The notes beneath the pieces were generated by a model that made no database searches, had not been told where the DNA came from, and was given only the letters and a program-made list of their open reading frames with translations. Both the position numbers and the translations under genes were made by a program. Positions 1-61,457 of a stretch of 61,457 nt of DNA are shown one piece after another. Source of the DNA: a virus (Duplodnaviria > Caudoviricetes); IMG/VR virus record IMGVR_UViG_3300037247_000747, positions 1-61,457 of that record; one strand, 5' to 3'. The stretch's first letter is position 1, and each line of letters starts with the position of its first letter.

Positions 1-127
1 GATGAGAGTGTCCTGACAGCCGGTTATGGCATAGATGTCACTGATGCCGGTGGTGACGGTGGTGCTGTGACAGTTGCCGTGGATACAACAGAAATCAGTG
101 CAGACGGTACAGATACATGGTCAGACG
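1..127. repeat. 127-bp direct repeat identical to 61331-61457 (circular assembly overlap)
   Basis: The first 127 nt match the last 127 nt exactly, and an ORF reads through the join in frame. Confidence 0.95.
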
Positions 128-2028
128 GTTCTAATGCGTCGATTGTGTGGACATTCGATGTGTCTGGTACGGATCATTCTATGACAGCAGGGAATGGCCT
201 GATGACGTTCGGTGACGCTGTGACAGTCACAGACACATTGACCGCATTATCAGGTATAGACATGGGTACCAGCCAAACCATATCAGGGACAACCGCTATG
301 ACTTTGGGCGGTGGCTCAGAGACAATCGCAATTAACAGTTCTGATTGGGATATATCATCAACAGGTGTCATGACAGGTATCGGCGCTATTACCTCCAATG
401 GCGTGGTCACTTCAACAGGACTCACAATTGGGTCAGCGGCAATCATAGAAGCTGAATTAGAGATCATCGACGGTGCTACGCTAAACACCTCAGATATTAA
501 CATAATTGATGGTATTAGCGATTCGGGCAACCTAACAGCAGGAGAATTGCTGTATGTTGATGGTGTGACTTCTGCTATTCAAGCTCAATTAAATGCTAAA
601 GAGGGAACGCTTACAAACGAGGCTGGTTTGTATTCTGCGCTATCTGACGTTACCCTATTCCTTGAAGATCTTGTGGACGATACCACGCCATCATTAGGCG
701 GTGATCTGGCAATAGCAGCATACGAACTCCAAAGTACATCAAATATTGTCCTTCAGTTAGGAGATGCTGCCGGAGCAAACGTATTTGAGATTGAAGATTC
801 TGATGGTACTACCATATTTGATGCTGATTCAGACGGAAATGTGTATTTAGCAGGCAGTATATCATCTGAGGCTGTCAACAATCCATATTACAAGTTCGAT
901 GAAAACGATGGAACGGATTACTGGATGGGCATTTATGATACCACAACCGACAGGTTGGAATTCAGACGTTCTATAACCGTCGACACATCGGTCGATATGT
1001 ATCTTGATGCTAATGAGCTTCAGGTAAACGGGAATGTAGATGTTTCATCCGGCCATACATTCCAAATTAACGGAACACAGATAGCTCTTACAAACCTTTC
1101 AGATGGATTATCCCATAACGCAGGCCATGAACGGGCAGGAGCAGACGAGATAGACGGAGACCATCTGGGTATAGACTTTACCCCAAGTAATTATACACCA
1201 GCGACAACACCGGCAGAGGCAGCTAATGTTGACGATCTGGCAGCACATTTACAGGGGATTGATACCGTCCTTGGTGCATCTGGCACAGGTACGTTGGCAG
1301 GTATGACAGACACAACCATATCTTCACCGGCTGCTGGTCATCTTCTGATATGGGATGGTTCAGACTCCTGGGACAATAAAGCTGTGAGCGGTGATATTAC
1401 GATTGATTCTGCCGGGGTTGTCACATTAGCTGCAAATGCTGTTGATTCAGACAATTATGTTGATGGGTCAATAGACGTAGAACATCTATCAGCCAACTCT
1501 GTTGATTCCGATGCTTACGTTGACGCATCGATAGACCTGGCTCATATGTCAGCAGAAAGCGTTGACAGCGATCAGTATGTCGATGGTTCGATAGATAATG
1601 AGCATTTAGCTGGTAGCATAGATGTGAGTAAAACAGCATTGGCGGCTGGAAGATCATTAACATTGTCTACAAACACAATGAATGCCGATGCTGAATTATA
1701 TACTGATTCAAAATGTATTTACATTGAAGATCCGACAGCAGACGACGATCTGGAAAGCATATGGAGAACAAAAGATATTGCCGTAACCCTAACGAGTATA
1801 TGGGCCGAATCCGATCAGACGGTTAATTTTGATCTTCAAATAGACGATGGAAGCCCGGCTGATGTAAATGGATCAGATATAAGTCCAGCAGCCGGTGAAG
1901 CTGAGGATACTGATTTAGGAGGCGATACAGCAATGGCCGATGGCGATAGGCTTGATCTTGTAGTTACTTCTGTAAGCGGAGATCCAACATGGGTAAGTAT
2001 TTGCTGGACATATACAAAGGATGATTAA
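1..2028 (+). CDS. 3' part of a ~1037-aa tail-fibre-like protein that begins at 60245 and crosses the contig join
   Basis: Frame 1 is open from base 1 (DESVLTAGYG...) to TAA at 2028. It is G/T/S/D-rich, with VDSDxYVDGSIDxEHL repeats and a C-terminal beta-rich domain. Confidence 0.85.
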   Translation, partial: DESVLTAGYGIDVTDAGGDGGAVTVAVDTTEISADGTDTWSDGSNASIVWTFDVSGTDHSMTAGNGLMTFGDAVTVTDTLTALSGIDMGTSQTISGTTAMTLGGGSETIAINSSDWDISSTGVMTGIGAITSNGVVTSTGLTIGSAAIIEAELEIIDGATLNTSDINIIDGISDSGNLTAGELLYVDGVTSAIQAQLNAKEGTLTNEAGLYSALSDVTLFLEDLVDDTTPSLGGDLAIAAYELQSTSNIVLQLGDAAGANVFEIEDSDGTTIFDADSDGNVYLAGSISSEAVNNPYYKFDENDGTDYWMGIYDTTTDRLEFRRSITVDTSVDMYLDANELQVNGNVDVSSGHTFQINGTQIALTNLSDGLSHNAGHERAGADEIDGDHLGIDFTPSNYTPATTPAEAANVDDLAAHLQGIDTVLGASGTGTLAGMTDTTISSPAAGHLLIWDGSDSWDNKAVSGDITIDSAGVVTLAANAVDSDNYVDGSIDVEHLSANSVDSDAYVDASIDLAHMSAESVDSDQYVDGSIDNEHLAGSIDVSKTALAAGRSLTLSTNTMNADAELYTDSKCIYIEDPTADDDLESIWRTKDIAVTLTSIWAESDQTVNFDLQIDDGSPADVNGSDISPAAGEAEDTDLGGDTAMADGDRLDLVVTSVSGDPTWVSICWTYTKDD

Positions 2029-2029
2029 A

Positions 2030-2620
2030 ATGAAAAGATGTCTTATTACTTTATTCATAGCTTTATTCCTTCCCCTATATGTTTTTGCTGCAGAAGAATC
2101 TATTGTTCCTGACGGTAGAACTTCCGGGCAAACAATGACATATACTTCGGGTACTGATGGTTACGATATGATAGACGAAGGATATGCGTCTAAAGATGGT
2201 TATACAACCGTTGTAAGAAATGCATATGGAAGCTCAAACGAAATAGAGCAGTATAGCTTTGCTAATGTCTCAGTTATGGGTGGTGGTGACGAAACATCTC
2301 AGATTGTAATAAAGGTTTATGCGGGTGAGACTGGCGGGAGTGGTGCGCTTGATGATGCAGTGGGCATTAGATTATATATAGCAAGTAGCTGGGAAACACC
2401 GGATGGAGGGCAGTATCAGACATTACCGGAAACTCTAACAGATTTGACCTACACGTTTACAGGTGTGTGGACTCAAGGTGAAGTCAATGCTATGGACGTG
2501 GAATTGTCTTTGCGCGGTTTAGATGGGGATTATAACCCTGCATGTTCAACAATTGAGGCAGATATTACCTATGCTGCAGGCGGTGGCGGTGATCCAAGGA
2601 GGATAATGTTAATACAATGA
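2030..2620 (+). CDS. Signal-peptide-bearing beta-rich protein, putative fibre accessory/lectin subunit
   Basis: Sec-like N-terminus MKRCLITLFIALFLPLYVFA; Gly linker followed by a short RRIMLIQ tail. The track start is 2021, but 2030 has the better RBS spacing. Confidence 0.7.
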   Translation: MKRCLITLFIALFLPLYVFAAEESIVPDGRTSGQTMTYTSGTDGYDMIDEGYASKDGYTTVVRNAYGSSNEIEQYSFANVSVMGGGDETSQIVIKVYAGETGGSGALDDAVGIRLYIASSWETPDGGQYQTLPETLTDLTYTFTGVWTQGEVNAMDVELSLRGLDGDYNPACSTIEADITYAAGGGGDPRRIMLIQ

Positions 2621-4317
2621 GAAATATATTTATAACGATAAGTTTGTTTTTATTAGTTGCATTTCCAGTATTTGCGGAAGATGTTTACGTTGATTCAACC
2701 ATTGCTGATTGTACTACATATAGAGTCACGGAAAGGGATTGTGGTTCTGGTTCAGAACGAGCCTATAGTGCCATTCAAGAAGCAGTCGATTATGTTTCGA
2801 CCTCAGACGATATTTATATTCGTGGTGGTACATATAACGAAAACGTAACTATGGATAGTAATCAAGGCGCAAGTGGAATTGCTGAGGATTACGCAACAAT
2901 ACAGTCTTATCTTGGAGAGTGGGCGATCATAAATGCGTCTGGCGGGACTGCATTGGGTCGTACCTATAACGGGCGGGACGGTGGGAATGAATTTGAGTAT
3001 TTAACTATTCAAAGACTTGAAATTACAGGAGGTGGGTCTACTAATTCGGGGGGAGGCATTGGCATAGCTGGTGATTTCTTAGAGTTCAGATACCTCTATA
3101 TACATGACAATACGGCAAGCAATGGAAATGAAAACCCTGCCGGTATAAGAACTTATGCCCTACATGATAGTATTATAGAATATTGCTATTTTGACAATAA
3201 CGGGATGGACTCTGGCACGGACAACAATTCAGCTCATATCGCTATGTTTGGCGATTATGCATGGAACTCTATAGGCGAGAATGGATTTAATGGCACCGAG
3301 ACAAATGTAACAACCAGAAATACTATTCGATATAATTATTTCAATGATGCTCCGATTGCAATTAAGCATAAAGGCGGGCAGTTATTTACAGGTAGAAATA
3401 CTGGTGGTGCTGATTTTGTCGATACATATAAAACAATGGGTGATAAAATTCATCATAATCTTTTTCAGAACATCGCTGTGTACTGTATAAACGCCGAGCA
3501 AGATTTTTGTCAAATATACCAGAACATTTTCGATAATCCTAACTTTGCAATAGTCGTACATTATCAACCTGACTTTCAGCTATATAAAGTAACAATATAT
3601 AATAACACCATTTGGAATCCGGTCGACGCAGGGATAACGCGTTTTGGGTGTATCTATAGCGGTTTTAGCGGTTTTACTGAAAACCAGATTCATTATGGTT
3701 ATGACTGGAACAATATTTTTGATTCTGCTGATGTGCATTATACAAATGTAGATTCAATGGACTGGGGAACTACCACAGCGATAAATATCCTTTGGTACTC
3801 AGGCGGTAGCAGAACTCAATACTCATCACCTGACCTTATTACGGGGTATTATTCATCTGACAATTATTTTTACCGGCCCGATGATCCAGACCAATTCAGG
3901 ATGATTCAAAATAACTTTTTTACCGTATCGGAGTTTGAAGGGCAATCATTAACTCACACACCAAGAGATCAATATACTAATGCATATAGCGGTGGAGATT
4001 TACTGTACGTGGGAACTACTGGGGCAGATAAATTCGTAACCAGGGGGGCGCATGTTGTTGATGGCGCCACTACAATAGCAAATGGTGGGATCGGCGGGGC
4101 GCACCCTTATTTGAACGGTGTAACCATACCTTCTTTTGTCGGTGCAACAAACCCCAGTGACAATGATTGGGTTGATGGTTTATTGTCAGATTTAACAAGC
4201 ACAGCATGGCTTGAAGATCAGACAGGCGATCCAACATGGATTGAAGGTGCTGAGGCAGCATCCACACCATCAATGTCTGGCGTATCATTTAGCGGTGGTG
4301 GAAATGGTGGGGGTTAA
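2617..4317 (+). CDS. Signal-peptide-bearing parallel beta-helix (pectin lyase-like) protein, tailspike/depolymerase-like
   Basis: Signal MRNIFITISLFLLVAFPVFA; IQEAVD...IYIRGGTYNE start typical of beta-helix proteins; repeated IxxNxF/IYNNT rungs. Confidence 0.8.
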   Translation: MRNIFITISLFLLVAFPVFAEDVYVDSTIADCTTYRVTERDCGSGSERAYSAIQEAVDYVSTSDDIYIRGGTYNENVTMDSNQGASGIAEDYATIQSYLGEWAIINASGGTALGRTYNGRDGGNEFEYLTIQRLEITGGGSTNSGGGIGIAGDFLEFRYLYIHDNTASNGNENPAGIRTYALHDSIIEYCYFDNNGMDSGTDNNSAHIAMFGDYAWNSIGENGFNGTETNVTTRNTIRYNYFNDAPIAIKHKGGQLFTGRNTGGADFVDTYKTMGDKIHHNLFQNIAVYCINAEQDFCQIYQNIFDNPNFAIVVHYQPDFQLYKVTIYNNTIWNPVDAGITRFGCIYSGFSGFTENQIHYGYDWNNIFDSADVHYTNVDSMDWGTTTAINILWYSGGSRTQYSSPDLITGYYSSDNYFYRPDDPDQFRMIQNNFFTVSEFEGQSLTHTPRDQYTNAYSGGDLLYVGTTGADKFVTRGAHVVDGATTIANGGIGGAHPYLNGVTIPSFVGATNPSDNDWVDGLLSDLTSTAWLEDQTGDPTWIEGAEAASTPSMSGVSFSGGGNGGG

Positions 4318-4319
4318 TT

Positions 4320-6329
4320 ATGGTGGACTCTTTAGTACAATTCAGAACCAACGACCAGCTTGACCAGGATGAAAGGGAGGAAGTCGCCAAAAGGGATGCT
4401 GCACAGGTGCAGGCAAGCCCTTTAGTTTCTTCCCTGACATCTCATGTTTTAAAAAGATGGGAAGCTGCCAAGACTGCAAAGCTCGAAATTGAGCGGAAGC
4501 ATATGAGAATAAAACGTATGCTTAGGGGTGAATATGAGCCTGATAAGCTGGCTAAGATCAGAGCCAGGGGCGGTGCTTCAGTATATATGCGTTTGGCCGA
4601 TGAAAAATCTACGGCATTAAAAGCCTGGTTGATCGATATCTTGTTGCCGGCCGATGAAGAACCTTGGGGAGTATCACCGACTCCTGTGCCTGATCTTCCC
4701 CCCGAACAGCATCAAAGTATCGAGCAGTCGGTGTTGGCCCTGGTAGAGCAGGATATGGCAATTGGTGTAGAGGCCACACCCGAAGATGTGGTCAACAGAA
4801 TCCAGGGCATAGCCGGGGAGATACAGCAGCAGTTAGCGGAAGCAGCAAAAGAGGTTGAGCGCAAGGTAGAGACCAAGATTAAGGATGTTATTGTAGAATC
4901 GAATTGGCGCCAGGCACTTAAAGATTTTATTTTTAATTTGGTTGATTATAAAGCAAGTTTCCTTAAGGGGCCTGTCTTTCGCATGGGAAAAGAGATTGTC
5001 TGGGATGAGAACGGATCTCCGCAGGTTGTTGATAAGATCAATATGGAGTTTGAAGCTCCTAACCCAGTGGATATGTTTCCTTCTCCTTCCTCAAAAAATT
5101 GTAATGACGGATATCTGTTTCAAAAGCATTCCCTCACACGCAAGTCCCTGGTCGCAATGAAGGGTGTGAAAGGATATGACAGCCAGGCCATTGACAACGT
5201 CCTTAGGGATTACGGAAACGGTGGATTGAAAAGATGGATATACGAAACCAGACAGAATGAAGTTGACAGGCTATCAGAACGGCCTCATGCCGAGCTTGAC
5301 CCTGAAGGTACCATTGATGCCTTGCAGTTCTGGGGATCAATTCAAGGGCTCTCTTTGCTCGAACATGGTATAGAGGTAGAAAGAGTGCCTGATCTTTTCG
5401 CAGAGTATGAAGTGGAGGTCTGGCAGATAGGAAACTATGTAATCAAGGCAGAGCTTAACGGCAATCTTTTAGGTGACAGGGGTTACTATAAGGCGAGTTT
5501 CCGGAAGAAGACTGACCAGTTCTGGGGTGACAGTTTACCCGAAGTTATAGAAGACAACTGTGATGTGTGCAATGCGGCTGCAAGGAACATGGTCAATAAT
5601 GCAGGCATGATATCCGGGCCTCAAATCGGCGTGGATAAGAATGCAATGCCAGCCGGTGAAATTATTACCAATATCACGCCGTTGAAAGTATGGCAGTTCC
5701 ATTTAGCTGATGTAGCAAATGGTGGGAAACCGCCTATCTGGTTCTTTCAGCCCAAGAGCATGATTAATGATCTGATAAAGCTTTATGAGTTTTTCAGCGA
5801 CCAGGCTGACAACCGATCCGGTGTACCAAAATACAGCTATGGTCAATCTTCCGGGGGCGGTGCGATTAACACGGCAACCGGTTTCTCAATGATGATGTCC
5901 AATGCTTCAAGGGGGATTAAGCTGGTTATCAGCAATATCGATGAAGTTATAGAAGGATCTGTCAAGGGGGTTTATACCTTCCTGCGACTGAATGATCCTG
6001 ACCCGGTTTTAAGGATGGGTGACATTAAGCTTATACCCAAGGGTTCAAGTAGCCTTGTGGCAAAAGAGCAGACTCAAATAAGAAGGAATGAATTTCTACA
6101 AACTGCTTTGCATCCTTTACTGTCACAAATAATCGGGCCGGAGGGACTCGCAAAGATGACGCGAAAAGTCGCAAGCGGTCTGGATATGGGCGGGGAGGAT
6201 ATCGTACCATCGGATGAGGATCTTAAAAGGCTGGTGCTCCAACAGGCAGGGCCACAAAACAACGGCAAGGGAACAAACACTAATCCGGCAGGTGACAGGA
6301 TGGGAGGTCAGGATGCTCGAACAGTTTAA
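4320..6329 (+). CDS. Portal protein
   Basis: 669 aa between terL and capsid; FWGDSLPE, NAAARNMVNN and TATGFSMMM motifs typical of podovirus portals. Confidence 0.88.
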   Translation: MVDSLVQFRTNDQLDQDEREEVAKRDAAQVQASPLVSSLTSHVLKRWEAAKTAKLEIERKHMRIKRMLRGEYEPDKLAKIRARGGASVYMRLADEKSTALKAWLIDILLPADEEPWGVSPTPVPDLPPEQHQSIEQSVLALVEQDMAIGVEATPEDVVNRIQGIAGEIQQQLAEAAKEVERKVETKIKDVIVESNWRQALKDFIFNLVDYKASFLKGPVFRMGKEIVWDENGSPQVVDKINMEFEAPNPVDMFPSPSSKNCNDGYLFQKHSLTRKSLVAMKGVKGYDSQAIDNVLRDYGNGGLKRWIYETRQNEVDRLSERPHAELDPEGTIDALQFWGSIQGLSLLEHGIEVERVPDLFAEYEVEVWQIGNYVIKAELNGNLLGDRGYYKASFRKKTDQFWGDSLPEVIEDNCDVCNAAARNMVNNAGMISGPQIGVDKNAMPAGEIITNITPLKVWQFHLADVANGGKPPIWFFQPKSMINDLIKLYEFFSDQADNRSGVPKYSYGQSSGGGAINTATGFSMMMSNASRGIKLVISNIDEVIEGSVKGVYTFLRLNDPDPVLRMGDIKLIPKGSSSLVAKEQTQIRRNEFLQTALHPLLSQIIGPEGLAKMTRKVASGLDMGGEDIVPSDEDLKRLVLQQAGPQNNGKGTNTNPAGDRMGGQDARTV

Positions 6330-6927
6330 AAAACTATTGAAGATCAGGATGGGGATTAAAGAGTATTTTACAAATCTTCTAAAGAAAGAAATAGAGAAAG
6401 ATTCAAAGCCCGGCTTGAAAAACGCTGTAACGGTGGGTGATCAGGAAGTAACTTTACAGGAGCTTGAAAGCCAGACAGACCATCGCACCCTGGGGGAAAT
6501 TGAGGAAGATGAACAGGATCAATGGGTATACATTCAGAAGGATCTCAAGGATTACCGGTTTAATACGATGGAGGGTGCAGGGGTTTTTGTCGGGGAGTGT
6601 GTTGTCCAGGTTTTAAGGAAATGCGGTGTTGTCAATGAACTTGGCGCAAAGAAAATGGACGGGCGTTTGATATTTATGAATATGGTTAACAACGATAAGT
6701 TTGCCAAGGCGATGTATCAGAAGCATAAGGTAAGGTTCTCAAGGCATCGAGATAGCCAGGGTGACGAGTTTTGGGAGGCAGGAGCATACATATACAAAGA
6801 TAAGGAGTGTGTGGCCTTCATTTCGGACGGTAGCTTTGTGAAAAGTGAATATATCGTAGGCCCTGCTTTCTATGTTGTAAGAACAAATGTTCAGCTTCCT
6901 GGGGGGAAAGGGGTTAAGGCAGCATGA
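6313..6927 (+). CDS. Hypothetical protein
   Basis: GGAGG RBS precedes ATG 6313, in frame with the track ORF at 6214; ends KGVKAA. Confidence 0.65.
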   Translation: MLEQFKKLLKIRMGIKEYFTNLLKKEIEKDSKPGLKNAVTVGDQEVTLQELESQTDHRTLGEIEEDEQDQWVYIQKDLKDYRFNTMEGAGVFVGECVVQVLRKCGVVNELGAKKMDGRLIFMNMVNNDKFAKAMYQKHKVRFSRHRDSQGDEFWEAGAYIYKDKECVAFISDGSFVKSEYIVGPAFYVVRTNVQLPGGKGVKAA

Positions 6928-7325
6928 ATTTAGATATCAACGACTGCGAGAATTTCGGTCAGGTAATAGATGCCGTCACCGCCTTTGAGCTTCGTTATGA
7001 TGAGCGGCCACAAAGGCTGATAGTCAAAAGGCGTGTATTTGCGGGAATAAGAGAGAATGACCCCATTATCGGGGATCTCTATCGGCGTAAGGAGTCACCA
7101 TTTTATTTTTTCGAGAACGTTATAATTTACGAAGAAGATATTGTTATGTGGCAAAATATTCGAGAGGAATACGACCCTCTTGAATTTTGGTTACTCTATT
7201 GGGCATCTAAGGATAATATCTTCTTTGATCTGTTTGGGGAAAATGAAACGGTTAAAATAACAGGCATGAGCGATGTTAAGTATCCTGATCCACTTAAAGA
7301 AACTAAAGGAGTCAAAGCAGCATGA
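6924..7325 (+). CDS. Hypothetical protein with weak resemblance to an HK97 A-domain pattern
   Basis: ATGA-coupled on both sides; ends KGVKAA. Confidence 0.6.
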   Translation: MNLDINDCENFGQVIDAVTAFELRYDERPQRLIVKRRVFAGIRENDPIIGDLYRRKESPFYFFENVIIYEEDIVMWQNIREEYDPLEFWLLYWASKDNIFFDLFGENETVKITGMSDVKYPDPLKETKGVKAA

Positions 7326-16735: not shown

Positions 16736-17740
16736 ATGAATCAGCAAGTATTTGTAAATCATTTCAGCACGACTTTGGCTGCGGATATAAATTCTACTGT
16801 TACAGCTTTGCAGCTTACCTCTGCAACCGGAGCCCCCACAATCGCAAATGGTGATTGGTGGATGCTGCACCTGGTAGACACTGATGGAGCTAAAGAGATT
16901 GTCAAGGTAACTGCCAGAACGGGAGTAAATTGCACGATTGTAAGAGCCCAGGAGGGGACAACCAATGTTTCCCATACCCTTACGCCTGTGACTGTTGTTC
17001 AAAGCAGGCTTACGGCTGAAAGCACTCAAGACTTTGAGGATGCCAAAAGGCAAATATCAGACCTGGATGGTGATACAAAAATTCAGGTGGAAGAATCGGA
17101 TGATGAAGATGTTATCCGGCTTGACGTAGCAGGCTCAGAGATAGCCAAGGTGAATTCAACAGGGATAGTTCTTTCTCAAGGGAAAGCCATCACAGATAGT
17201 GATGGCGATACTAAAATCCAACTGGAAGAGGGTGCCGATGATGACACTATCAGGTTTGATGCAGCAGGCTCAGAGAAAGCAATAATCGATTCTGCCGGAA
17301 TGAAAGTAAATTCAAACAGGGTTATTGAGGGGGCCGCTATAGCTACACCCATAGTACAAAGAACTATTTCTGTTTACATACAAAATGGGGTAGGCGCGGC
17401 TACTCTTAAATGTACTGTGATTCCTCAATTTAATGGAGACAGTATAGCCACAAGTGGTGATATAGCAGTAGGGGGTGATGATGGGCATTATACACTTATT
17501 ACTGACGATATTTTAAGTATAGCATATGCAGGTCTTTCAGGTAAAGTATTAGGGGTATTATCCACAAATGTTTATTCAAACTGCGGAACAAATTTAGATT
17601 GTGATGCTTCGGACGTGGGTGATGATCTACAAATTAATTTTTATGCACCAGGTGACGCATCCGGATCAACCATTGATCTTACAACTTTAGTAGATACAGG
17701 AACTATAACTGTACTAATAACATATATAACAGATGCTTAA
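16736..17740 (+). CDS. Tail fibre protein
   Basis: N-terminal EIVKVTAR...IVRAQEGT adaptor-binding domain; two DxDGDTKIQxEE repeats. Confidence 0.8.
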   Translation: MNQQVFVNHFSTTLAADINSTVTALQLTSATGAPTIANGDWWMLHLVDTDGAKEIVKVTARTGVNCTIVRAQEGTTNVSHTLTPVTVVQSRLTAESTQDFEDAKRQISDLDGDTKIQVEESDDEDVIRLDVAGSEIAKVNSTGIVLSQGKAITDSDGDTKIQLEEGADDDTIRFDAAGSEKAIIDSAGMKVNSNRVIEGAAIATPIVQRTISVYIQNGVGAATLKCTVIPQFNGDSIATSGDIAVGGDDGHYTLITDDILSIAYAGLSGKVLGVLSTNVYSNCGTNLDCDASDVGDDLQINFYAPGDASGSTIDLTTLVDTGTITVLITYITDA

Positions 17741-23416: not shown

Positions 23417-26400
23417 ATGTTCAATATATCTCAATTTAGGCAACAAAACCCACAGTTTGCTGAAATGGACTCGTATGATCTTGCACACAAGGTCTACTCT
23501 GCTAATCCTGCGCTTCAAAATGCGGGTGTTACTTTTAATGATTTTGCCAAACAGTCGGGTGCGGATGAAGATTATTCCTCAAGAAATTCCGGGTTTGTCG
23601 ATACCGTTAAAGCAATTGGAGCTGGCTCAAAAACACTTTGGAGTCAGGTAAAAGGCTCTACTGCCTCTGCTATTCGTGGCGGTGATATCGATACCCAAGA
23701 GGGTTACGCCGATAAGGTTATCCGCGAGAATCAGGAAATCATCCAGGCTTATTTAGCAGAGTACGGGAAAAACAAGGGTGATTCCTTTCTTAACATTACT
23801 CCCAGTGATGTAGCCACAGCAATAAGCAATATGGGCTTTTCCGGTGTTGCAGCCGTTACGGGTTTAGCCGTGGGCGGTGCAACGGCGGCACTTCCTGTCC
23901 CTGGTGCAAGACCAGCGGCATACGCTACCGGTTCAGCAGCAATGGGAAAAGTAGCTTACAACATGGCAAGGGATCAGTTTACCCAGACATTCATGGATGC
24001 TGTAAATGAGGATCGAGCATCAAGGGGCACGCCTTCTTTAACAGAAGAAGAATGGCAACCAATGAAGGAAGGGCTTGACCAGAAAGCCCATGAATACGGT
24101 TTATGGGAAGCTATTCCCGAAGCAATAGGTGGTGCGGTGGGATTTAAGATCATTACTGCACCGCTGAAAGGCTTTTTAAAAAAATATTTAAAAGATGATA
24201 TTGGCAACAGAATGTTAGGCAAGCTCGTTAGTGGCGGTGCAAGGCTTGGCGCTACAACCGCAGAGCAACTTGTTGAGGAAACTATTACACAGTATGGGCA
24301 AGGCGGCATTGAGGCCGATGTTGGTTTAAGGGATGAAAGACCTACCTGGAAAGAAGCAGGCAAAGAGATTTACGGGCCAACAGTAGCATTGACAGCGATT
24401 ATGGCCGGTGGAGCTAAAGGCGCTCATATGGGGTATGAGGCCCTTACCAAAAAGAAAGCAATAACCACAAATGAACCAACAGACCTTTTAAAAGATGCTC
24501 CGATACCGGAAGCAGATCCTGGCCCTGTCCAGGACAGAGTACATGCCCCGGGTGATATTTCCGGTCCTACTCCGATGCAAGTACAGAACCAGGAAGAAAT
24601 CAACCAGGCCATGCCTGTGCATAGAAGTTCCGATCTTCTTAAAACCCATGAAGAAGAAGTAAGTGAAAAACAGGAAGCAGAACTCGAAAGTCTACAACAG
24701 TCCATGGACGATGAAAGGCAAGCTCAGGAATGGGAAGCTGAAATAACAGGACAGCAGCAGGCCGAAGCTCAAAGACAGGAAGAATTAAGGCGAGAAGAAA
24801 TTCAAAGACCGTATCCGGACACAAATGTTTCCGGGCAAATTCCAGACAAGGGTCTTGCTCATATTGTTTCCTCCGAAGTTAATGGTCAAAAAATTAAAGT
24901 TAATGTTACACCAACAGAAGCGCAAAAGCAAGCAGGAAATTATTTGAAAGGGGCAATTAATATCCAGGGCATGGAAATCTCTATTGAGAATCCAAAAGGA
25001 TCAGAGCGAACCGGTGTTGATGAAAACGGAAAAGACTGGTCTGTTACCATGAATCATCCTTATGGATACTTTAACAGAACTGAGGGCAAGGACGGTGAAC
25101 AAATCGATGTGATTGTGGGTCCCAATCCTGAAAGTGAGAAAGCATTCGTTGTAGATCAGATCAACCCAAACACCGGGAACTTCGATGAACACAAATCTTT
25201 GGTAGGATTTAAGGATAAAAATAGTGCCAGAGAAGGCTATCTATCCAATTATGAGGAAGGATGGAAAGGTCTTGGAGAAATAACTGAAACGCCTGTTGAT
25301 GAATTTAAGGCATGGATTGGTGACGGAAAAAGAAAGACATTGCCATATGCTGATCACATCGCCAAAAAAGACGAGCCTGCAGTTAAAGTGGGAGATATCA
25401 TTCATACCATGCCAGATGGATCTATTATGCCGGGTCCTGAACATAAAGGATCTGTACCCGGAAGTGAAAGAAAAGCTACTCAAGAAGATATTAATGCTCT
25501 TTTTGAACTTGGTGAACCAAAAAAGCCAAAGAAGACTCAAGGGGCCATACAAAGAAAGCTTACTGACAGCGAAATAGTAAAGACAGAAGATGTTGACGCT
25601 GTTGAAAAACTTAAAAAGAAAATTGACAAGCTTGTAAAGATTCAAGATTTAATGAATGCAGCGGATAAGATCGTTAATAAGAAAAATCTTTCATATGATG
25701 AGAAAGTAGCTGAACTTCTCGAAATAAAGGATCGAATACAAAGCATAGAGAAACAAAGAACTGAGAAGCAAGTTGAGACAAAGAAACCCTCAAAAGATGT
25801 CAAAAAACCGGAAAAACTCACCAAAAAACAAAAGGCCCTTCAGGAGTACCAGAATTATATAGGCGCTCTTTCCCCGGAACAAACAGAACTTGCCGGGGAT
25901 CTGGTTCAAGAAGACCCTAAGTATCCTTCAGGACAGGTGTTGAAGATTAAGAAGAGGTTGAAGGATGCTAAAAAACCTATTCCCAAGATAAAGCCCCTTA
26001 AGCAATCCACAAAAGGCGCAAACGTCCGAACTATCCGGGGCTATATAAACACTGTTTTAAGTGGCATAAACCCCGGAAACATGAAAGGTGAGGTTGAAGA
26101 GCTTCCTGTTGCTGCCAAGTTTCTATTTAGAAAGAGCGGTACACCCTTGGACCTGGCAGAAGAAGACCTTAAAGCAAATGGCTGGATGCATCCGGACGAA
26201 GACCTTTTATCAGAACTCCGTGACCCTGAATTTCTAAAGCGCAGGCCTATCACAAAAGAACTTGAGGACATTCCCGAAGCAGAGCTCACTAAAGCAGAAA
26301 AGGAAGTTCGAGATATCGGGAAGCAGGATATAGAAGCAGGAGAGACAGCCGAGTTTTTTGAGAAGAAAGGCTTTGAGATGGTCGGGGGCAAAGATATCAC

Positions 26401-53977: not shown

Positions 53978-54382
53978 ATGAAACCGATAGTTGAACTTAT
54001 CCGTCTGGAAGAAAGCAGCCAGGGAACATTTGGAGTGCTGAAAATTAATAAAGAGGTTTTCTGTGTGACGCTTGAGCCTGAAGATAGGTTAAATGTCGAA
54101 AATGTAAGCAGCATACCAGCACAGCAGTATATATGTGACCTGCACCATTCTCCTAACTTTGGTTTAACGTGGAAAGTAACAGATGTACCGGGGCGTACAG
54201 ATGTTTTATTTCATTCCGGCAACTGGGCCAGGGATACAGAGGCTTGTATCTTACTGGCCCAGTATTGGGGAAAACTCCAAGGGCATAGGGCTGTGCTTAA
54301 TTCCGGCAAAACCTTTAAACAGTTCATGGCTATCATGGACCCGTTTAGCCATTTCCATTTAACGATTAGAGAGGTTTATTAA
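53978..54382 (+). CDS. DUF5675-like protein, probable endolysin
   Basis: TFGVL...TLE, IPAxxY and VPGRTDVLFHSGN...TEACIL motifs. Confidence 0.7.
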   Translation: MKPIVELIRLEESSQGTFGVLKINKEVFCVTLEPEDRLNVENVSSIPAQQYICDLHHSPNFGLTWKVTDVPGRTDVLFHSGNWARDTEACILLAQYWGKLQGHRAVLNSGKTFKQFMAIMDPFSHFHLTIREVY

Positions 54383-54840: not shown

Positions 54841-55161
54841 GTGAAACTTTTTATTATCGCTGTAATTGCTATCCATATCATATTTGGATTGGTACCAATA
54901 GTGGTGTGTGACGCTAAGGTCGTGTTGAAAGATAATGCAAAAAAAGAAGTCAAGTATGAAGTAACAATCAGCCTCACCTATAACGCCATATCAGCCAAGG
55001 ATGTGCGGGAAAAGATTGAGCAAGTCTTAAAAGATCATAAGGATACCTGTAAGACAGAGGTTAAAATTAAGAAGGGGGATAACATCGTCCAAGCTGGTGA
55101 TGGATGGACAAGCCAACCCTATCCCATTATTGATAGTGGTAATGTGCTCACATTTGACTAA
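54841..55161 (+). CDS. Membrane-anchored or exported protein
   Basis: Hydrophobic N-terminus; GTG start with AAGGAG RBS. Confidence 0.6.
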   Translation: MKLFIIAVIAIHIIFGLVPIVVCDAKVVLKDNAKKEVKYEVTISLTYNAISAKDVREKIEQVLKDHKDTCKTEVKIKKGDNIVQAGDGWTSQPYPIIDSGNVLTFD

Positions 55162-55176
55162 TGGAGGCGGGTAGTT

Positions 55177-55564: not shown

Positions 55565-55575
55565 GCAAACCTCCT

Positions 55576-55797: not shown

Positions 55798-55838
55798 TCT
55801 TGTACCGGCCCAACAGAGTCAGGCCGTAACAGGAAGGT

Positions 55839-57761: not shown

Positions 57762-58331
57762 ATGGCAAAGAAACAAAAACTCACGGATAAACAAAAGGCA
57801 TTTGTAAATGAATACTTGGTTGATTTCAATGCAACTCAGGCCGCTATTCGTGCGAAATACTCTAAAAAGACAGCAAAAGTAATCGGTCCTGAAAACTTGT
57901 CAAAACCTTACATCCAAGAAGCGATTGCGGAAAAGCGAAAACAACTTGCAAAGAAAGAGAATATAGCCTCAGTCGAAGAAATAATGGAAGGCTATACAAG
58001 AGATATCCGGTTTGATCCAAGAAAATTATATGGCGATGATGGCCACCTGAAAGATGTACCTGATTTGGATGATGATACGGCTCTGGGCCTTGCAGGTTTG
58101 AAAGTCACTGAAACTGTAGTCCTGAGTGACAAGAAAACGAAAGTAATTAAAAGAGTGTATGAGTATAAATTACCGGATAAGAAAGCTAATCGTGATTCTA
58201 TGAAGAAAGTCTTTGGAATGGATGCTCCTGAGAAAATTAACCACGGGTTAGACTCTGACAGCACACAGGCCATAATTGATGCAACAAAGAGCATTTTAGG
58301 TGAGGTTGATGGGCGAACCCGCAACAAATGA
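57762..58331 (+). CDS. terS: Terminase small subunit
   Basis: LTDKQKAFVNEYLVDFNATQAAIRAKYS. Confidence 0.93.
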   Translation: MAKKQKLTDKQKAFVNEYLVDFNATQAAIRAKYSKKTAKVIGPENLSKPYIQEAIAEKRKQLAKKENIASVEEIMEGYTRDIRFDPRKLYGDDGHLKDVPDLDDDTALGLAGLKVTETVVLSDKKTKVIKRVYEYKLPDKKANRDSMKKVFGMDAPEKINHGLDSDSTQAIIDATKSILGEVDGRTRNK

Positions 58332-59832
58332 TTTATCCAGAAATGAAGCAGTAGAGAACCTTTCTGACAAATGGTGGAGGATGGATAACCTCTACATGAT
58401 TTTGGATAAAATCGGAAAATCGGTCAGGTTCAAGATGAATCCGATTCAGGAAAATTTCTTTGAAGCCCTGCACTATCTCAACCTCATATTGAAAGCAAGA
58501 CAGCTTGGATTTACTACATTTATTGATATCTACATGCTCGATGAATGTATTTTTAACAGCAATATTGAAGCCGGGATTATCGCACACAACAAAGACGATG
58601 CTCAGAAGATATTCCGGAGAAAGATTAAATACCCCTGGGATCACATCAATGAAAACATAAGAGCAGCCAGGCCGACCGTAATAGAATCTAAGTCAGAGCT
58701 CGGATGGGACAATGATTCCATTATCTCTGTTGGTACCTCCATGAGATCCGGAACACTTCAGATGTTGCATATCAGTGAGTTCGGAAAGATATGCGCTAAA
58801 TACCCTGAGAAAGCAAGAGAGGTTGTTACAGGATCGTTACAGGCTGTCCAGGCAGGCCAGGAAGTCTTTATTGAAAGTACAGCAGAGGGCAGGTCAGGAA
58901 AGTTCTATGATATGTGTATGGAGGCTGAAAAGCTCAAGATAGAGGTAGATGCCGGCAGACGCATTTATAACAGGATGGATTACAAGTTTCATTTCTTTGC
59001 CTGGTGGCAGGAGCAGGGGAATGTTCTCGATGATCCTGTGCCTATCTCAACCAGGCTGTCAACGTATTTTGAAAAGATTGAAAAACAAATAGGCCGGAAG
59101 TTCACGCTAAAGCAAAAGTATTGGTATGTTCAAAAAGACAAGGTGCTTGGCACCGATATGAAGCAAGAGCATCCTTCAACGCCTAAAGAAGCCTTTGAGC
59201 AATCAATTGAAGGTGCCTACTTCTCTTCACAGTTTGAGAAGCTTAGAGAAGGCGGTCACATCTGTAAAGTACCTATTGATAATGATGCCATAGTAAGCAC
59301 CTGGTGGGATCTTGGCATGGACGATATTAACGCTATCTGGTTCACACAGGACGTAGGCCGTGAGATTCATGTAATTGATTATTACCAGAACAGCGGTGAA
59401 GGATTGGAGTTCTATTCCAAGATTCTTGAAAAAAAAGAATATCGTTACAGCGAACACGTTGCGCCGCATGATATCTCTGTCCGAGAGCTTGGCCCAGGAG
59501 TTTCCAGGATGAAAACAGCGCTGAAATACGGTCTTAAGTTCAGAAAAATACCCAGAGTAAAAGTTAAACTCGACTCAATCGCTGCCGCAAGACAAATGCT
59601 TGGGTCCGGTCGAGTCTTTTTTGATGAAGAACGATGTGATGAAGGTATTAAGATGCTGGAAGGATACAGAAAAGAATGGAATGAGGACTTAGCAACTTAC
59701 AGGACAAGCCCTTTACATAATGTTTGCAGCAATGGGGCAGATGCCTTTCAAACCTTAGCTATGGGGCACAAGTTTAGTCCAAAGCATATATTTCAACCAG
59801 TACAAATAGAAGATCCAGAGGGGTGGACATAA
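58300..59832 (+). CDS. terL: Terminase large subunit
   Basis: LKARQLGFTT, LHISEFG, ESTAEG, WDLG and ADAF motifs. Confidence 0.93.
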   Translation: MRLMGEPATNDLSRNEAVENLSDKWWRMDNLYMILDKIGKSVRFKMNPIQENFFEALHYLNLILKARQLGFTTFIDIYMLDECIFNSNIEAGIIAHNKDDAQKIFRRKIKYPWDHINENIRAARPTVIESKSELGWDNDSIISVGTSMRSGTLQMLHISEFGKICAKYPEKAREVVTGSLQAVQAGQEVFIESTAEGRSGKFYDMCMEAEKLKIEVDAGRRIYNRMDYKFHFFAWWQEQGNVLDDPVPISTRLSTYFEKIEKQIGRKFTLKQKYWYVQKDKVLGTDMKQEHPSTPKEAFEQSIEGAYFSSQFEKLREGGHICKVPIDNDAIVSTWWDLGMDDINAIWFTQDVGREIHVIDYYQNSGEGLEFYSKILEKKEYRYSEHVAPHDISVRELGPGVSRMKTALKYGLKFRKIPRVKVKLDSIAAARQMLGSGRVFFDEERCDEGIKMLEGYRKEWNEDLATYRTSPLHNVCSNGADAFQTLAMGHKFSPKHIFQPVQIEDPEGWT

Positions 59833-60242
59833 TGGCAAGTTCAGTCGTGGCAACAAGTAAGCTTACGGGGACCGGAGCAGAAATACTGACTTTGGTAGTC
59901 ACTGGCGATTCAGGGGATGGGACTGTTGATGATTATCTATTACCGGTAGATGTGCTCAATTACCTAAAAGAAACCGGGTGCTATTTGAGCCAGATGAAGC
60001 AGATTCCGGGTTCGACACCAATGACTGCAGAGTTCAATGTGTATGTGAAAGACAGTCTCGATTACGACATTCTGGGCGGTAATGGTGAGGATTTGGGTAT
60101 TACTGCTCCCGAAATTGTGCAACCTGCAGACGGTCCTCAACCGATTGATGACACATCATTGACATTGAGCATTGATGACACCACGGATGTGTCCGGCGTG
60201 GTCACGCTGCAATTTAATTTTGCGAAGTATGAGGGGAGTTAA
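59832..60242 (+). CDS. Small beta-rich putative virion protein
   Basis: TAATG-coupled to terL; acidic and beta-rich. Confidence 0.6.
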   Translation: MASSVVATSKLTGTGAEILTLVVTGDSGDGTVDDYLLPVDVLNYLKETGCYLSQMKQIPGSTPMTAEFNVYVKDSLDYDILGGNGEDLGITAPEIVQPADGPQPIDDTSLTLSIDDTTDVSGVVTLQFNFAKYEGS

Positions 60243-60244
60243 AA

Positions 60245-61457
60245 ATGAAAAGAATCTTATTGTGGTTTTTCGTTTTATGGTTATTCATTGTGCTGTTTGC
60301 CAAGGTTGCCAATGTATACGCAGGGCCGTTTTTTAATCCCATTCCGAAACAGAAGGGACACTCGGGAGAGTATCTTACGACAAATGGTAAGAAATTAAAC
60401 TTTGAGTCTGTTGCTCCTGGTACCGGCGCTGATGCTGGCGCGTCATATCTGACAAGGGATGCTGAGGCAGGGCTTACAGACGAAGAAGTTGTCACGGCTA
60501 ACGGCCTGGCTATTGTGCAGGCTGCGAACTATGCGGCTATGAAAGTGCTGCTTGACCTTGAAATCGGAACAGACATACAGGCCTGGGACGCTTTTCTCGA
60601 TGATATTGCGGCTTTGACCGATCCAGGGAGGGACCGCATCGTCTTTTGGGACGATACTTCAGGAAATATTGTGTGGCTCGACGTTGGAACCGGTTTGGAT
60701 ATTACCGGAACAACCTTGACTGCAACAGGAGGTTCCGGGACTGGTGATCTGCTTGCCGATGGAACTGTACCTCTTACAGCCAATTGGGATGTGGGGCCGT
60801 ACACAGTAACAGCCTTACGGTTTATATCCGACATAGCGATAGGAACTTCCCCTTTTGCCGTAACATCGACAACGGTTGTTTCTAATCTCAATGCAGATCT
60901 TCTTGACGGTACGGAGCTTTCCGCACTTACCACCGACGCAGAACTGGCAGCGTGGGTTGGATCTGCCAATATTACCACGTTGGGAACGATTGGGACAGGA
61001 ACATGGGAAGGAGATGATATTGTTACTGGTAAGCTGGAAAATTATGGTTCATGGACAATGGAAGCGTTGGGTGCAACCCTAACATTGTCAGATGGGGACA
61101 TTATAGATTTTTCAGGGATTACACACTCCGAAGGAGTTGATGAGGGTATTGTCCTTCCAGCATATGTGAACGTGGCTCCCGCAACTGTAGCAAAGCATTT
61201 CATGGCATATGATCCTGCTAATAATGCGATAATGGTACGAGAAACAGGGGGGTGGGTTGACACCTCTGCCGGAACAGGGGCAGCAACCTCTTTGAATTTC
61301 GTTGTTACCGCAGCAGAAGGGTCTCTTTCAGATGAGAGTGTCCTGACAGCCGGTTATGGCATAGATGTCACTGATGCCGGTGGTGACGGTGGTGCTGTGA
61401 CAGTTGCCGTGGATACAACAGAAATCAGTGCAGACGGTACAGATACATGGTCAGACG
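60245..61457 (+). CDS. 5' part of the ~1037-aa fibre-like protein (continues through the join to 2028); N-terminal signal peptide
   Basis: GAGGGGAG RBS; MKRILLWFFVLWLFIVLFAKVANVYA; fibre motifs GHSGEYLTTNG and GTSPFAVTSTTVVSNLNADLLDG; no stop before the end. Confidence 0.85.
   Translation, partial: MKRILLWFFVLWLFIVLFAKVANVYAGPFFNPIPKQKGHSGEYLTTNGKKLNFESVAPGTGADAGASYLTRDAEAGLTDEEVVTANGLAIVQAANYAAMKVLLDLEIGTDIQAWDAFLDDIAALTDPGRDRIVFWDDTSGNIVWLDVGTGLDITGTTLTATGGSGTGDLLADGTVPLTANWDVGPYTVTALRFISDIAIGTSPFAVTSTTVVSNLNADLLDGTELSALTTDAELAAWVGSANITTLGTIGTGTWEGDDIVTGKLENYGSWTMEALGATLTLSDGDIIDFSGITHSEGVDEGIVLPAYVNVAPATVAKHFMAYDPANNAIMVRETGGWVDTSAGTGAATSLNFVVTAAEGSLSDESVLTAGYGIDVTDAGGDGGAVTVAVDTTEISADGTDTWSD
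61331..61457. repeat. Second copy of the 127-bp terminal overlap
   Basis: Identical to 1-127. Confidence 0.95.

What the first reader, a model, noticed from the sequence alone, without database searches (positions are those of the whole stretch)
1..4317. Three consecutive fibre/tailspike-like genes all carry Sec-type signal peptides: a possible exported phage appendage system
Seen: between terL and the portal gene sit a ~1037-aa fibre-like protein (60245 through the join to 2028; N-terminus MKRILLWFFVLWLFIVLFAKVANVYA), a 196-aa beta-rich protein (MKRCLITLFIALFLPLYVFA) and a 566-aa beta-helix protein (MRNIFITISLFLLVAFPVFA). Each has a basic n-region, a hydrophobic core and a VxA end. The only two cysteines I see in the fibre bracket its C-terminal domain (SKCIY...SICWTY), and the beta-helix has a close Cys pair (DCTTYRVTERDC). 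Known: tailed-phage virions assemble in the cytoplasm, and fibres normally lack signal peptides, as the fibre at 16736 does. Inference: these proteins are exported and disulfide-folded outside the cytoplasm, then either dock on virions at lysis or are displayed on the infected cell for adhesion, surface remodelling or superinfection exclusion.
Basis: partly seen in the sequence, partly recalled or inferred. Interest (0 to 1): 0.85.

Follow-up and report, generated by a model that had tools for sequence, protein, structure and literature searches.

The report
Exported phage fibre-and-depolymerase cassette
An uncultured short-tailed phage puts bacterial secretion signals on a long fibre, a small sugar-binding-like protein and a sugar-cutting enzyme related to its host's own slime-making genes, so these host-surface tools very probably mature outside the cytoplasm, where tailed phages are thought to build all their parts.

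Summary
Observation confirmed. The window is a circular 61,330-bp podovirus-like genome. The three co-oriented genes between terL and portal are a 1037-aa fibre-like protein, a 196-aa beta-sandwich and a 566-aa right-handed beta-helix. Each begins with a Sec-type leader: a basic start, a 13-16-residue hydrophobic core, and VYA or VFA.

The leaders are conserved in 98 of 120 beta-helix homologues and in 8 of 9 distinct phage copies.

New here:
- In bacteria the beta-helix family sits inside exopolysaccharide (EPS) synthesis clusters (18 of 38 genome loci).
- Its nearest relative (about 50% identity) is such a gene in a gammaproteobacterial MAG.
- Phage and cellular copies interleave on the tree.
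- Sister phages (portal 54-57% identical) fill the same slot with other, non-homologous leader-bearing fibre and beta-helix sets. Three of four also keep a separate leaderless tail fibre.

Export is well supported (about 0.85). What follows export is open. I favour a periplasm-matured, EPS-directed module whose enzyme works in soluble form (0.45). Late docking on particles is a strong rival (0.33). It is helped by Cellulophaga phage phi18:3, whose three leader-bearing proteins are annotated as structural from MS/MS.

The scan has noted leader-bearing phage fibres before on other DNA (103 notes). No experiment exists for this phage.

The parts
60245..61457 (+). First part of the 1037-aa fibre-like gene. 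The predicted Sec leader is residues 1-26 (60245-60322). The ORF runs through the circular join.
   Evidence: Residues 188-239 are 54-75% identical to short segments in four phage records, two of them annotated 'distal tail fiber protein' (Thermus phages).
128..2028 (+). Rest of the fibre-like gene: shaft repeats and a C-terminal tip domain of about 130 aa bracketed by C934 and C1030.
   Evidence: The tip domain aligns with P0185, P0188, P0210 and P0233, all leader-bearing.
2030..2620 (+). 196-aa leader-bearing beta-sandwich protein (leader is residues 1-20), possibly carbohydrate-binding.
2617..4317 (+). 566-aa leader-bearing right-handed beta-helix (leader is residues 1-20), of polysaccharide-lyase-like fold. 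It belongs to a family found in bacterial EPS clusters.
59823..60242 (+). 139-aa leaderless ORF between terL and the fibre gene. Its homologue in a sister phage (L059, 181 aa, 25% identity) carries a leader.
58300..59832 (+). Large terminase, the upstream boundary of the slot.
4320..6329 (+). Portal protein, the downstream boundary of the slot.
16736..17740 (+). Canonical leaderless tail fibre (334 aa) in the tail module. The N-terminal part is conserved in sister phages and the C-terminal part is variable.
1..127 (.). 127-nt terminal overlap, identical to 61331-61457. It marks a circularly closed assembly.

Best explanation
The three genes form a Sec-exported module aimed at the host's surface polysaccharide. 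They are transcribed with the late packaging and head genes.

Inferred steps:
1. All three proteins cross the inner membrane unfolded.
2. They lose their leaders after VYA or VFA.
3. They fold in the periplasm, with a disulfide in the enzyme's first rungs and one around the fibre tip.

The 566-aa beta-helix is a glycan-cutting enzyme recruited from, or exchanged with, the host's own EPS-synthesis locus. Its relatives in those loci are themselves leader-bearing. It has no particle-binding domain. I therefore read it as a soluble depolymerase. It would cut the host polymer in the envelope of the infected cell and, once lysis frees it, in the surrounding matrix, clearing the way for progeny.

The fibre, probably trimeric, and the beta-sandwich are glycan-binding partners of the same module.

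The slot between terL and portal is a swappable cassette in this phage lineage. It always holds leader-bearing proteins, but different ones in each phage.

Shown: the leaders, their conservation, the folds, the EPS-locus kinship and the cassette swapping.
Inferred: actual export, cleavage, disulfides, the substrate, and that the enzyme acts free and not mounted on the particle.
For: Leaders and operon.
- Leaders and tight operon structure. No excess of promoter- or terminator-like sites inside the block at 1-7000.

Leader conservation in the beta-helix family.
- 196 homologues at E<=1e-3, best 120 listed. 98 of 120 are leader-like, with the leader ending just before the conserved start of the mature protein.
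- 8 of 9 distinct viral copies are leader-bearing.
- Extracellular add-ons occur in homologues: Por_Secre_tail in P0061, CBM96 in P0053.

Fold.
- Right-handed beta-helix, pLDDT 86.9.
- Best PDB matches are PL6 alginate lyases, chondroitinase B, Pel9A and RbmB, at TM about 0.4.

Cellular context.
- 47 loci in MAGs of many phyla.
- In 18 of the 38 loci examined (L012-L049, L025 being the reference) the gene lies beside homologues of one EPS gene set, and 13 have three or more of those genes.
- Pfam names the set: GT4, GT2, sugar-transfer ATP-grasp, AMP-ligase, polysaccharide deacetylase and UDP-GlcNAc 2-epimerase.
- 0 of 11 viral loci have these genes.

Tree.
- The window's protein is sister to the EPS-locus gene of L014 (51% identity, SH-aLRT 99).
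- At least 5 viral/cellular switches are forced by well-supported branches.

No anchor domain.
- The mature enzyme starts at the first rung.
- The one leaderless viral copy (L005, 1033 aa) has a long N-terminal extension instead.

Separate virion fibre.
- A separate leaderless tail fibre exists, with its N-terminus conserved in 3 of 4 sister records.

Sister phages.
- They carry different leader-bearing sets in the same slot.
- A more distant relative (L066) has terL abutting the portal with no cassette.

Precedents in print.
- Periplasmic VexL, a beta-helix lyase of a capsule locus, degrades the polymer from the periplasm (PMC6003464, abstract).
- Soluble phage depolymerases are a recognised form (PMC10792971, passage).
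Against: - A free fibre of 1037 aa has no obvious job. The recurring set of fibre, small protein and beta-helix, swapped between sister phages, looks like a host-recognition module of a virion.
- The fibre's shaft segments are shared with genuine leaderless tail fibres, including ones with a T7-type tail-attachment domain.
- In the viral structure library, annotated phage tailspikes match the beta-helix model as well as bacterial lyases do in the PDB. The fold therefore does not tell the two apart.
- A cultured analogue has three consecutive leader-bearing proteins annotated as structural from MS/MS.
- No other depolymerase candidate was found in the tail module. A virion facing an EPS-coated host would lack one.
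- A Sec leader alone takes a protein only as far as the periplasm of a diderm host.
- Host, substrate and activity are all unknown.
- The leader calls rest on a home-made screen.
Confidence: 0.45

Rival explanations
1. Export, then dock. All three proteins, or at least the fibre, mature in the periplasm. They are mounted on finished particles once the holin has breached the inner membrane and before, or as, the outer membrane gives way. The cassette would then be the lineage's real, swappable host-recognition gear.
For: - The slot upstream of the portal is variable among sister phages and always holds long fibres and beta-helices, as receptor-binding modules do.
- The same three-part architecture recurs on unrelated phage backbones: L007, L008, L010 and L001.
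- Shaft segments are shared with true tail fibres.
- The genes are co-expressed with terL and portal.
- Cellulophaga phage phi18:3 gp085-087 are three consecutive proteins with leader-like N-termini. They are annotated 'structural protein' from MS/MS in record KC821620.
- Earlier notes of this scan read other phages the same way. Those notes are unchecked apart from the phi18:3 lead.
Against: - The mature beta-helix has no N-terminal anchor.
- The mature fibre N-terminus matches no tail-attachment family.
- This phage and its sisters keep a leaderless fibre with a conserved anchor.
- Four fibre homologues have lipoprotein signals, which would tether them to a membrane.
- The phi18:3 proteins are not detectably homologous to the window's fibre. 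Co-purification with envelope debris is also not excluded.
Confidence: 0.33
2. Display on the infected cell. The proteins stay in or on the envelope of the infected cell, anchored by an uncleaved leader or by partners. There they strip or mask the receptor polysaccharide to exclude superinfecting phages, or they tie the cell to neighbours so that progeny are released next to new hosts.
For: - The fibre's 16-residue hydrophobic core could act as a signal anchor.
- Lipoprotein-type leaders followed by proline-rich linkers occur in 4 of the 48 leader-bearing fibre homologues.
- Lambda Lom is a leader-bearing envelope protein encoded among tail genes (PMC12309495, passage).
- Exported phage-like fibres sit on the surface of Bdellovibrio (PMC10769870, passages).
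Against: - The genes lie in a late lytic operon with no sign of separate expression.
- Exclusion brings little gain minutes before lysis.
- No outer-membrane anchor or secretion domain was found in the three proteins.
- None of the window's three proteins has a lipobox (sequence; the script tested only the fibre homologues).
Confidence: 0.12
3. Not exported. The hydrophobic N-termini are not working export signals. They could be relics of captured bacterial genes, membrane tethers used during cytoplasmic assembly, or wrong start calls. The proteins would then fold in the cytoplasm like ordinary phage parts.
For: - No signal-peptide predictor could be run.
- The beta-helix was plausibly captured from a bacterial locus together with its leader.
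- Leaderless versions of all three families exist.
Against: - Leaders are kept across phage copies that are only 30-44% identical, and in non-homologous proteins of the same slot in sister phages. A relic would have decayed.
- The starts have ribosome-binding motifs, and one search lists no shorter ORF in these frames.
- The Cys pair tends to go with the leader.
Confidence: 0.07

Closest known systems
VexL, the periplasmic lyase of Vi-antigen capsule loci (PMC6003464; abstract read)
   Same: - A right-handed beta-helix enzyme encoded inside a polysaccharide-synthesis locus.
- It is located in the periplasm and degrades the locus's own polymer there.
- The cellular relatives of the window's 566-aa protein have the same setting.
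   Different: - No sequence relation was shown: the window protein matches no Pfam family at E<=0.01.
- The window's copy is in a phage late operon.
- Its activity and substrate are unknown.
WceF of Pantoea stewartii (PMC7949094; passages read)
   Same: An exported, EPS-cluster-encoded glycanase with a tailspike-like beta-helix. It shows that traffic of such folds between phages and EPS loci is real.
   Different: - WceF uses a Tat leader.
- It is a trimer with a P22-like head domain.
- The window protein has a Sec-type leader and no head domain. Its oligomeric state was not tested.
Soluble (non-virion) phage depolymerases (PMC10792971; one passage read)
   Same: A phage-encoded polysaccharide-degrading enzyme that is not part of the particle. 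This is my preferred reading of the 566-aa protein.
   Different: The passage does not mention secretion signals. Here the enzyme carries a conserved leader and comes with a leader-bearing fibre and a leader-bearing beta-sandwich.
Cellulophaga phage phi18:3 gp085-gp087 (GenBank KC821620)
   Same: - Three consecutive large proteins with leader-like N-termini in a cultured podovirus.
- They lie apart from the main structural block and upstream of a gene annotated glycosyl hydrolase.
- They carry fibre-type repeats.
   Different: - They are annotated as structural from MS/MS, evidence that does not exist for the window.
- No detectable homology to the window's fibre and no Pfam hit.
- The host is a Bacteroidota species.
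- I did not read the paper behind the annotation.
Mosaic adhesive trimer (MAT) fibres of Bdellovibrio (PMC10769870; passages read)
   Same: - Phage-tail-fibre-like trimers that carry signal peptides and work outside the cytoplasm.
- One tip domain holds a single disulfide.
   Different: - They are encoded by a bacterium, not by a phage.
- They share a conserved domain of about 130 aa after the leader, and many have an S74 domain. No S74 match was found in the window.
Canonical podovirus tailspikes and fibres (P22 gp9 type, T7 gp17 type; recalled)
   Same: Beta-helix enzyme and modular fibre shaft. Shaft segments are shared with fibres that bear the T7 tail-fibre N-domain.
   Different: Those proteins are leaderless and begin with a particle-binding domain. 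The window's proteins begin with a leader and lack such a domain.
Lambda Lom (PMC12309495; one passage read)
   Same: A leader-bearing envelope protein encoded among virion genes.
   Different: Lom is a small beta-barrel expressed in lysogens. Here there are three large late-operon proteins of fibre and enzyme type.

Membership tests
Sec (signal peptidase I) signal peptides | Basic n-region, hydrophobic h-region, and small residues at -3 and -1 | tested here: met
   Read from the sequence: MKR or MR starts, cores of 13-16 residues, and VYA|G, VFA|A, VFA|E. The screen is home-made. The fibre's core is long for a cleaved leader.
Sec (signal peptidase I) signal peptides | Leader conserved in homologues and abutting the conserved mature start | tested here: met
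   - Beta-helix family: 98 of 120.
- Fibre relatives: 48 of 120, the rest being mostly classic leaderless fibres.
- 196-aa family: 6 of the 10 aligned members.
Sec (signal peptidase I) signal peptides | Export and cleavage shown, or scored by a trained predictor | not testable with these tools
   No SignalP-type tool was available, and there are no proteomic data for this phage.
Lipoprotein (signal peptidase II) leaders | Lipobox ending in Cys at +1 | tested here: not met
   None in the three window proteins (read from the sequence). Found only in the homologues P0139, P0147, P0148 and P0165.
Right-handed beta-helix polysaccharide lyases/hydrolases (PL6, PL9, chondroitinase B type) | Parallel beta-helix fold | tested here: met
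   AF2 pLDDT 86.9. Foldseek E of 3e-6 to 1e-4 to PL6 lyases, Pel9A and chondroitinase B, at TM about 0.4.
Right-handed beta-helix polysaccharide lyases/hydrolases (PL6, PL9, chondroitinase B type) | Sequence membership in a curated family, and catalytic residues | tested here: not met
   No Pfam-A hit at E<=0.01 and no NCBIfam hit at E<=0.001. At E<=1 only a chance-level FAINT match appeared. Catalytic or metal-binding sites were not examined.
EPS-locus periplasmic glycanases (the logic of VexL, WceF, AlgL) | Gene embedded in a polysaccharide-synthesis cluster | tested here: inconclusive
   Met for cellular homologues: 18 of 38 loci, including the nearest relative L014. Not met for the window's own copy, which lies in a phage operon.
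Phage tailspikes (P22 gp9 type) | N-terminal particle-binding domain ahead of the beta-helix | tested here: not met
   The mature protein starts at the first rung. The leaderless viral copy L005 has an N-terminal extension instead.
Phage tailspikes (P22 gp9 type) | Homotrimer present on the virion | not tested
   Three copies exceed the size limit of the complex tool. There are no virion data.
Phage tail fibres (T7 gp17 type) | N-terminal tail-attachment domain | tested here: not met
   No Pfam or PHROG match in the first 404 aa. The leaderless 334-aa protein at 16736 does match tail-fibre PHROGs over residues 8-191.
Phage tail fibres (T7 gp17 type) | Modular shaft shared with known fibres | tested here: met
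   54-75% identity over 35-52 residues to segments in four phage records, two annotated as distal tail fibres. 240 homologues at E<=1e-5, some with the PF03906 or PF13884 domains.
Carbohydrate-binding modules (for the 196-aa protein) | Beta-sandwich fold with a sugar-binding site | tested here: inconclusive
   Beta-sandwich, pLDDT 73.8. Weak Foldseek matches (TM 0.3-0.47) to CBM35, CBM6, CBM22 and CBM29, among many unrelated sandwiches. No PDB sequence match.

The most novel reading that the evidence does not exclude
A lineage of short-tailed phages builds its swappable host-recognition gear (long fibre, small adhesin, polysaccharide-cutting spike) in the periplasm via the host Sec pathway. 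It mounts that gear on cytoplasm-built particles only in the moments after the holin opens the inner membrane. This would be a two-compartment assembly route that I found described for no tailed phage in the listings of four searches.
Probability: 0.33. Interest if true: 0.9.

Novelty: new variant of a known kind. Interest (0 to 1): 0.64.

Why it matters
Textbook tailed-phage assembly is wholly cytoplasmic, and tools that look for host-recognition proteins or depolymerases assume leaderless virion parts. Here a whole slot of a phage lineage is given over to secreted fibre and enzyme proteins.

The enzyme can be traced to the host's own slime-synthesis loci. That gives three things:
- a concrete route by which phages acquire depolymerases of the right specificity;
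- a way to guess hosts and substrates of uncultured phages from EPS-locus relatives;
- a reason why such enzymes may need an oxidising compartment to fold, which matters for making them recombinantly.

If the proteins turn out to be mounted on particles, it would add a new assembly step to phage biology. A cultured system, Cellulophaga phage phi18:3, exists in which the question can be tested.

Tried and rejected
Searches that found nothing or little:
- The 566-aa protein has no match in 50,697 GenBank phage records by tblastn.
- The 196-aa protein has no relative in viral contigs, and only itself in the word-indexed protein search.
- Pfam, PHROGs and NCBIfam give nothing for the three proteins at the thresholds used, apart from one weak, irrelevant PHROG hit on the fibre.
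- ESM Atlas look-ups gave only unnamed viral clusters.

Middle genes are not one family:
- I tested whether the roughly 200-aa middle genes of other cassettes belong to the family of the window's 196-aa protein. Profile-profile comparison aligned only the leaders. The middle position is therefore shared in architecture, not in homology.

Docking test:
- I folded the C-terminal part of the leaderless fibre (three copies) with the mature N-terminus of the leader-bearing fibre (three copies). Verdict: 'no answer', score 0.00, controls not run. This says nothing either way.

Other dead ends:
- PHROG scans named no holin, endolysin or spanin. A DUF5675 protein is the only candidate. I therefore dropped an argument based on holin type.
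- The fold could not tell bacterial lyase from phage tailspike.
- One literature search was wasted on too-general terms.
- The idea that the EPS clusters are of the PEP-CTERM/exosortase type was considered. Only weak, below-cutoff NCBIfam matches were seen, so I do not claim it.

Full report
WHAT IS THERE

The first and last 127 bases of the window are identical, so the record is a closed circle of 61,330 bp. Read through the join, the 3'-open ORF at 60245 (404 aa) and the 5'-open ORF ending at 2028 (675 aa) make one gene of 1037 aa. It is followed by a 196-aa gene (2030-2620) and a 566-aa gene (2617-4317).

Upstream lie a terminase large subunit (58300-59832; PHROG hits to 2e-75) and a 139-aa ORF. 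Downstream lies the portal (4320-6329; SU10_portal). All these genes abut or overlap by a few bases. Each of the three has a Shine-Dalgarno-like motif. The block 1-7000 shows no excess of promoter- or terminator-like sites. The scan of 55000-61457 found 13 terminator-like sites against 5.2 expected. I therefore read the three genes as part of a late operon.

The rest of the genome looks like a short-tailed phage:
- major head protein;
- head-tail adaptor-like portal region;
- internal virion protein;
- a 2990-aa polyvalent protein;
- a 334-aa tail fibre.

There is no tRNA. The terminase is 44-46% identical to those of phages of Proteobacteria.

THE LEADERS

Each of the three proteins begins with one or two basic residues, a hydrophobic run of 13-16 residues, and VYA or VFA. 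No signal-peptide predictor was on hand, so I used a crude hydrophobicity screen. It flagged 7 of 86 ORFs:
- the three genes of the finding;
- one probably spurious antisense ORF;
- three small ORFs.

None of the other virion genes was flagged. The fibre's 16-residue core is long for a cleaved leader and could be a signal anchor.

THE LEADERS ARE CONSERVED, WHICH IS THE MAIN ARGUMENT FOR EXPORT

The 566-aa protein has at least 196 homologues; the best 120 were listed, at 32-50% identity. Of those 120, 98 have a leader-like N-terminus that ends just before the conserved start of the mature protein. The other 22 are truncated entries, entries just under my threshold, and five full-length leaderless forms with other short N-termini. 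Some homologues add a T9SS sorting domain or a CBM96.

Ten viral loci carry the gene; two of the eleven loci in hand are duplicates. Of the nine distinct copies, eight are leader-bearing. The ninth (L005) has a long N-terminal extension instead.

For the fibre, 48 of the best 120 relatives of its C-terminal 675 residues are leader-bearing. Four of those have a lipoprotein-type lipobox. The rest are mostly ordinary leaderless tail fibres, some with the T7 tail-fibre N-domain. The fibre's tip domain aligns with four proteins, all leader-bearing.

The 196-aa protein has only 15 relatives among 1.84 billion representatives. The domain occurs in three forms:
- alone with a leader;
- alone without one;
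- at the C-terminus of longer leader-bearing proteins.

CYSTEINES

The fibre has exactly two cysteines, bracketing the tip. In the five aligned tips the two positions are both Cys (2 of 5) or both something else (3 of 5), as a disulfide would predict.

The N-terminal pair of the beta-helix occurs in 61 of 98 leader-bearing homologues and in 0 of 5 leaderless full-length ones (Fisher p = 0.01). Counting P0034, which starts exactly at the mature N-terminus and may be a truncated call, gives 1 of 6 (p = 0.04). These counts ignore relatedness and are only suggestive.

FOLDS

The 566-aa protein models as a right-handed beta-helix (pLDDT 86.9).
- In the PDB its best matches are PL6 alginate lyases, chondroitinase B, pectate lyase Pel9A and the Vibrio matrix lyase RbmB.
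- In the viral library, annotated tailspikes match equally well.
- All TM-scores are about 0.4, so the fold does not separate lyase from tailspike.

The 196-aa protein is a beta-sandwich (pLDDT 73.8) with weak likeness to several carbohydrate-binding modules among other sandwiches.

WHERE THE ENZYME COMES FROM

A scan of one genome per prokaryotic species found 47 loci in MAGs of many phyla. I made gene maps of L012-L049 and did not examine the weaker matches L050-L058.

In 18 of these 38 loci, counting the reference locus L025, the gene lies beside homologues of one gene set. Thirteen loci have three or more of those genes. Pfam identifies the set as two GT4 glycosyltransferases, a GT2, a sugar-transfer ATP-grasp, an AMP-ligase, a polysaccharide deacetylase and UDP-GlcNAc 2-epimerase. 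That is an exopolysaccharide-synthesis cluster. None of the 11 viral loci has these genes.

I built a maximum-likelihood tree of 43 copies. I left out the duplicates L002, L009 and L019 and every ORF aligned over fewer than 400 query residues.
- The window's protein pairs with the EPS-locus gene of a gammaproteobacterial MAG (L014; 51% identity, SH-aLRT 99).
- Well-supported branches force at least five switches between viral and cellular settings.

The phage enzyme is therefore kin to the leader-bearing glycanases that bacteria keep in their own EPS loci. Published counterparts are the periplasmic lyase VexL (PMC6003464, abstract) and the Tat-exported, tailspike-like WceF (PMC7949094, passages).

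THE SLOT IS A SWAPPABLE CASSETTE

Phages with a portal 54-57% identical to the window's carry other, non-homologous leader-bearing proteins just upstream of the portal:
- L059: three of three slot ORFs, one of them a leader-bearing homologue of the window's leaderless 139-aa ORF.
- L060: six of eight.
- L061/L062: five of seven, including a 1303-aa protein and a 592-aa Beta_helix/NosD protein.

A more distant relative (L066, portal 43% identical) has the terminase abutting the portal with nothing between.

The three-part pattern of leader-bearing fibre, small protein and beta-helix also occurs on unrelated phage backbones and at other positions: L007, L008, L010 and L001. The middle genes are not homologous to each other.

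The window's leaderless 334-aa fibre matches tail-fibre PHROGs over its first 190 residues. Its N-terminal 100-120 residues are 41-46% identical in three of four sister records, while the rest varies.

WHAT HAPPENS AFTER EXPORT

For the enzyme I favour a soluble role, for four reasons:
- it has no particle-binding domain;
- its relatives work in the envelope;
- soluble phage depolymerases are a known form (PMC10792971, passage);
- the phage has its own leaderless fibre.

Against this, a free 1037-aa fibre has no obvious use, and the swapped fibre-plus-spike sets look like host-recognition modules.

In record KC821620, gp085, gp086 and gp087 are consecutive, are annotated 'structural protein' from MS/MS, and begin with leader-like N-termini. 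They are not detectably homologous to the window's fibre. I did not read the underlying paper, and co-purified envelope material is not excluded. Still, this keeps export-then-dock alive at about one in three.

A fold of the leaderless fibre's C-terminal part with the mature N-terminus of the exported fibre gave no verdict. I do not count it either way.

IS IT IN PRINT?

Four full-text searches (listings and starts of abstracts only, plus the passages named above) showed no paper that describes secretion signals on tailed-phage fibres or tailspikes as an assembly or export route.

The nearest items are:
- lambda Lom;
- WceF;
- VexL;
- the exported fibres of Bdellovibrio (PMC10769870).

The scan itself holds 103 earlier notes in at least 97 other genomes on leader-bearing phage fibres. 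It holds none on this genome or on this protein.

VERDICT

Export is very likely. The fate of the proteins after export is open.

Noticed in passing
window 23417-32389 (+): A 2990-aa protein with an InPase domain (residues 501-634, E 2e-54) and an LPD38 'large polyvalent protein' domain (residues 2705-2876). PHROG matches include DarB-like antirestriction and virion proteins. It is probably an injected polyvalent protein.
   Followed up: partly
window 59823-60242 (+) and L059:6337-6882: The leaderless 139-aa ORF just upstream of the fibre gene is 25% identical (E 1e-4) to a 181-aa protein in the same position in a sister phage. That protein does carry a leader-like N-terminus.
   Followed up: partly
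window 17066-17166 and 17201-17301: Two copies of a 101-nt direct repeat (70% identity) inside the leaderless 334-aa tail-fibre gene, which gives a repeated unit of about 34 aa in its variable part.
   Followed up: no
window 53978-54382 (+): A DUF5675 protein (E 2e-30). It is the only hint of a lysis enzyme. PHROG scans named no holin, endolysin or spanin, although small ORFs with membrane segments lie nearby (54841-55161, 56310-56747, 56744-56998).
   Followed up: partly
L012-L049 (for example L025:2012-13296): An uncharacterised leader-bearing beta-helix family, with no NCBIfam or Pfam match, is a recurrent member of one EPS-synthesis gene set in Thermodesulfobacteriota, Fibrobacterota, Gammaproteobacteria, Acidobacteriota and others.
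   Followed up: partly
L017:999-12939 (Altiarchaeota MAG contig): The beta-helix homologue and five further consecutive ORFs all have leader-like N-termini (a seventh lies two ORFs upstream), on a contig binned to an archaeon. The 196-aa family also has a member (P0130) with a C-terminal membrane tail of archaeal sorting-signal type.
   Followed up: no
L003:8905-16732: A viral contig with six consecutive leader-bearing proteins (606, 538, 492, 180, 630 and 152 aa), right after a small lipoprotein-like ORF and a 151-aa ORF.
   Followed up: no
L059:4707-6374: The sister phage with the most similar full-length portal match (57% identity) has a 555-aa ORF in the terminase position that shows no BLAST similarity to the window's terminase. 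The packaging module is therefore mosaic.
   Followed up: no
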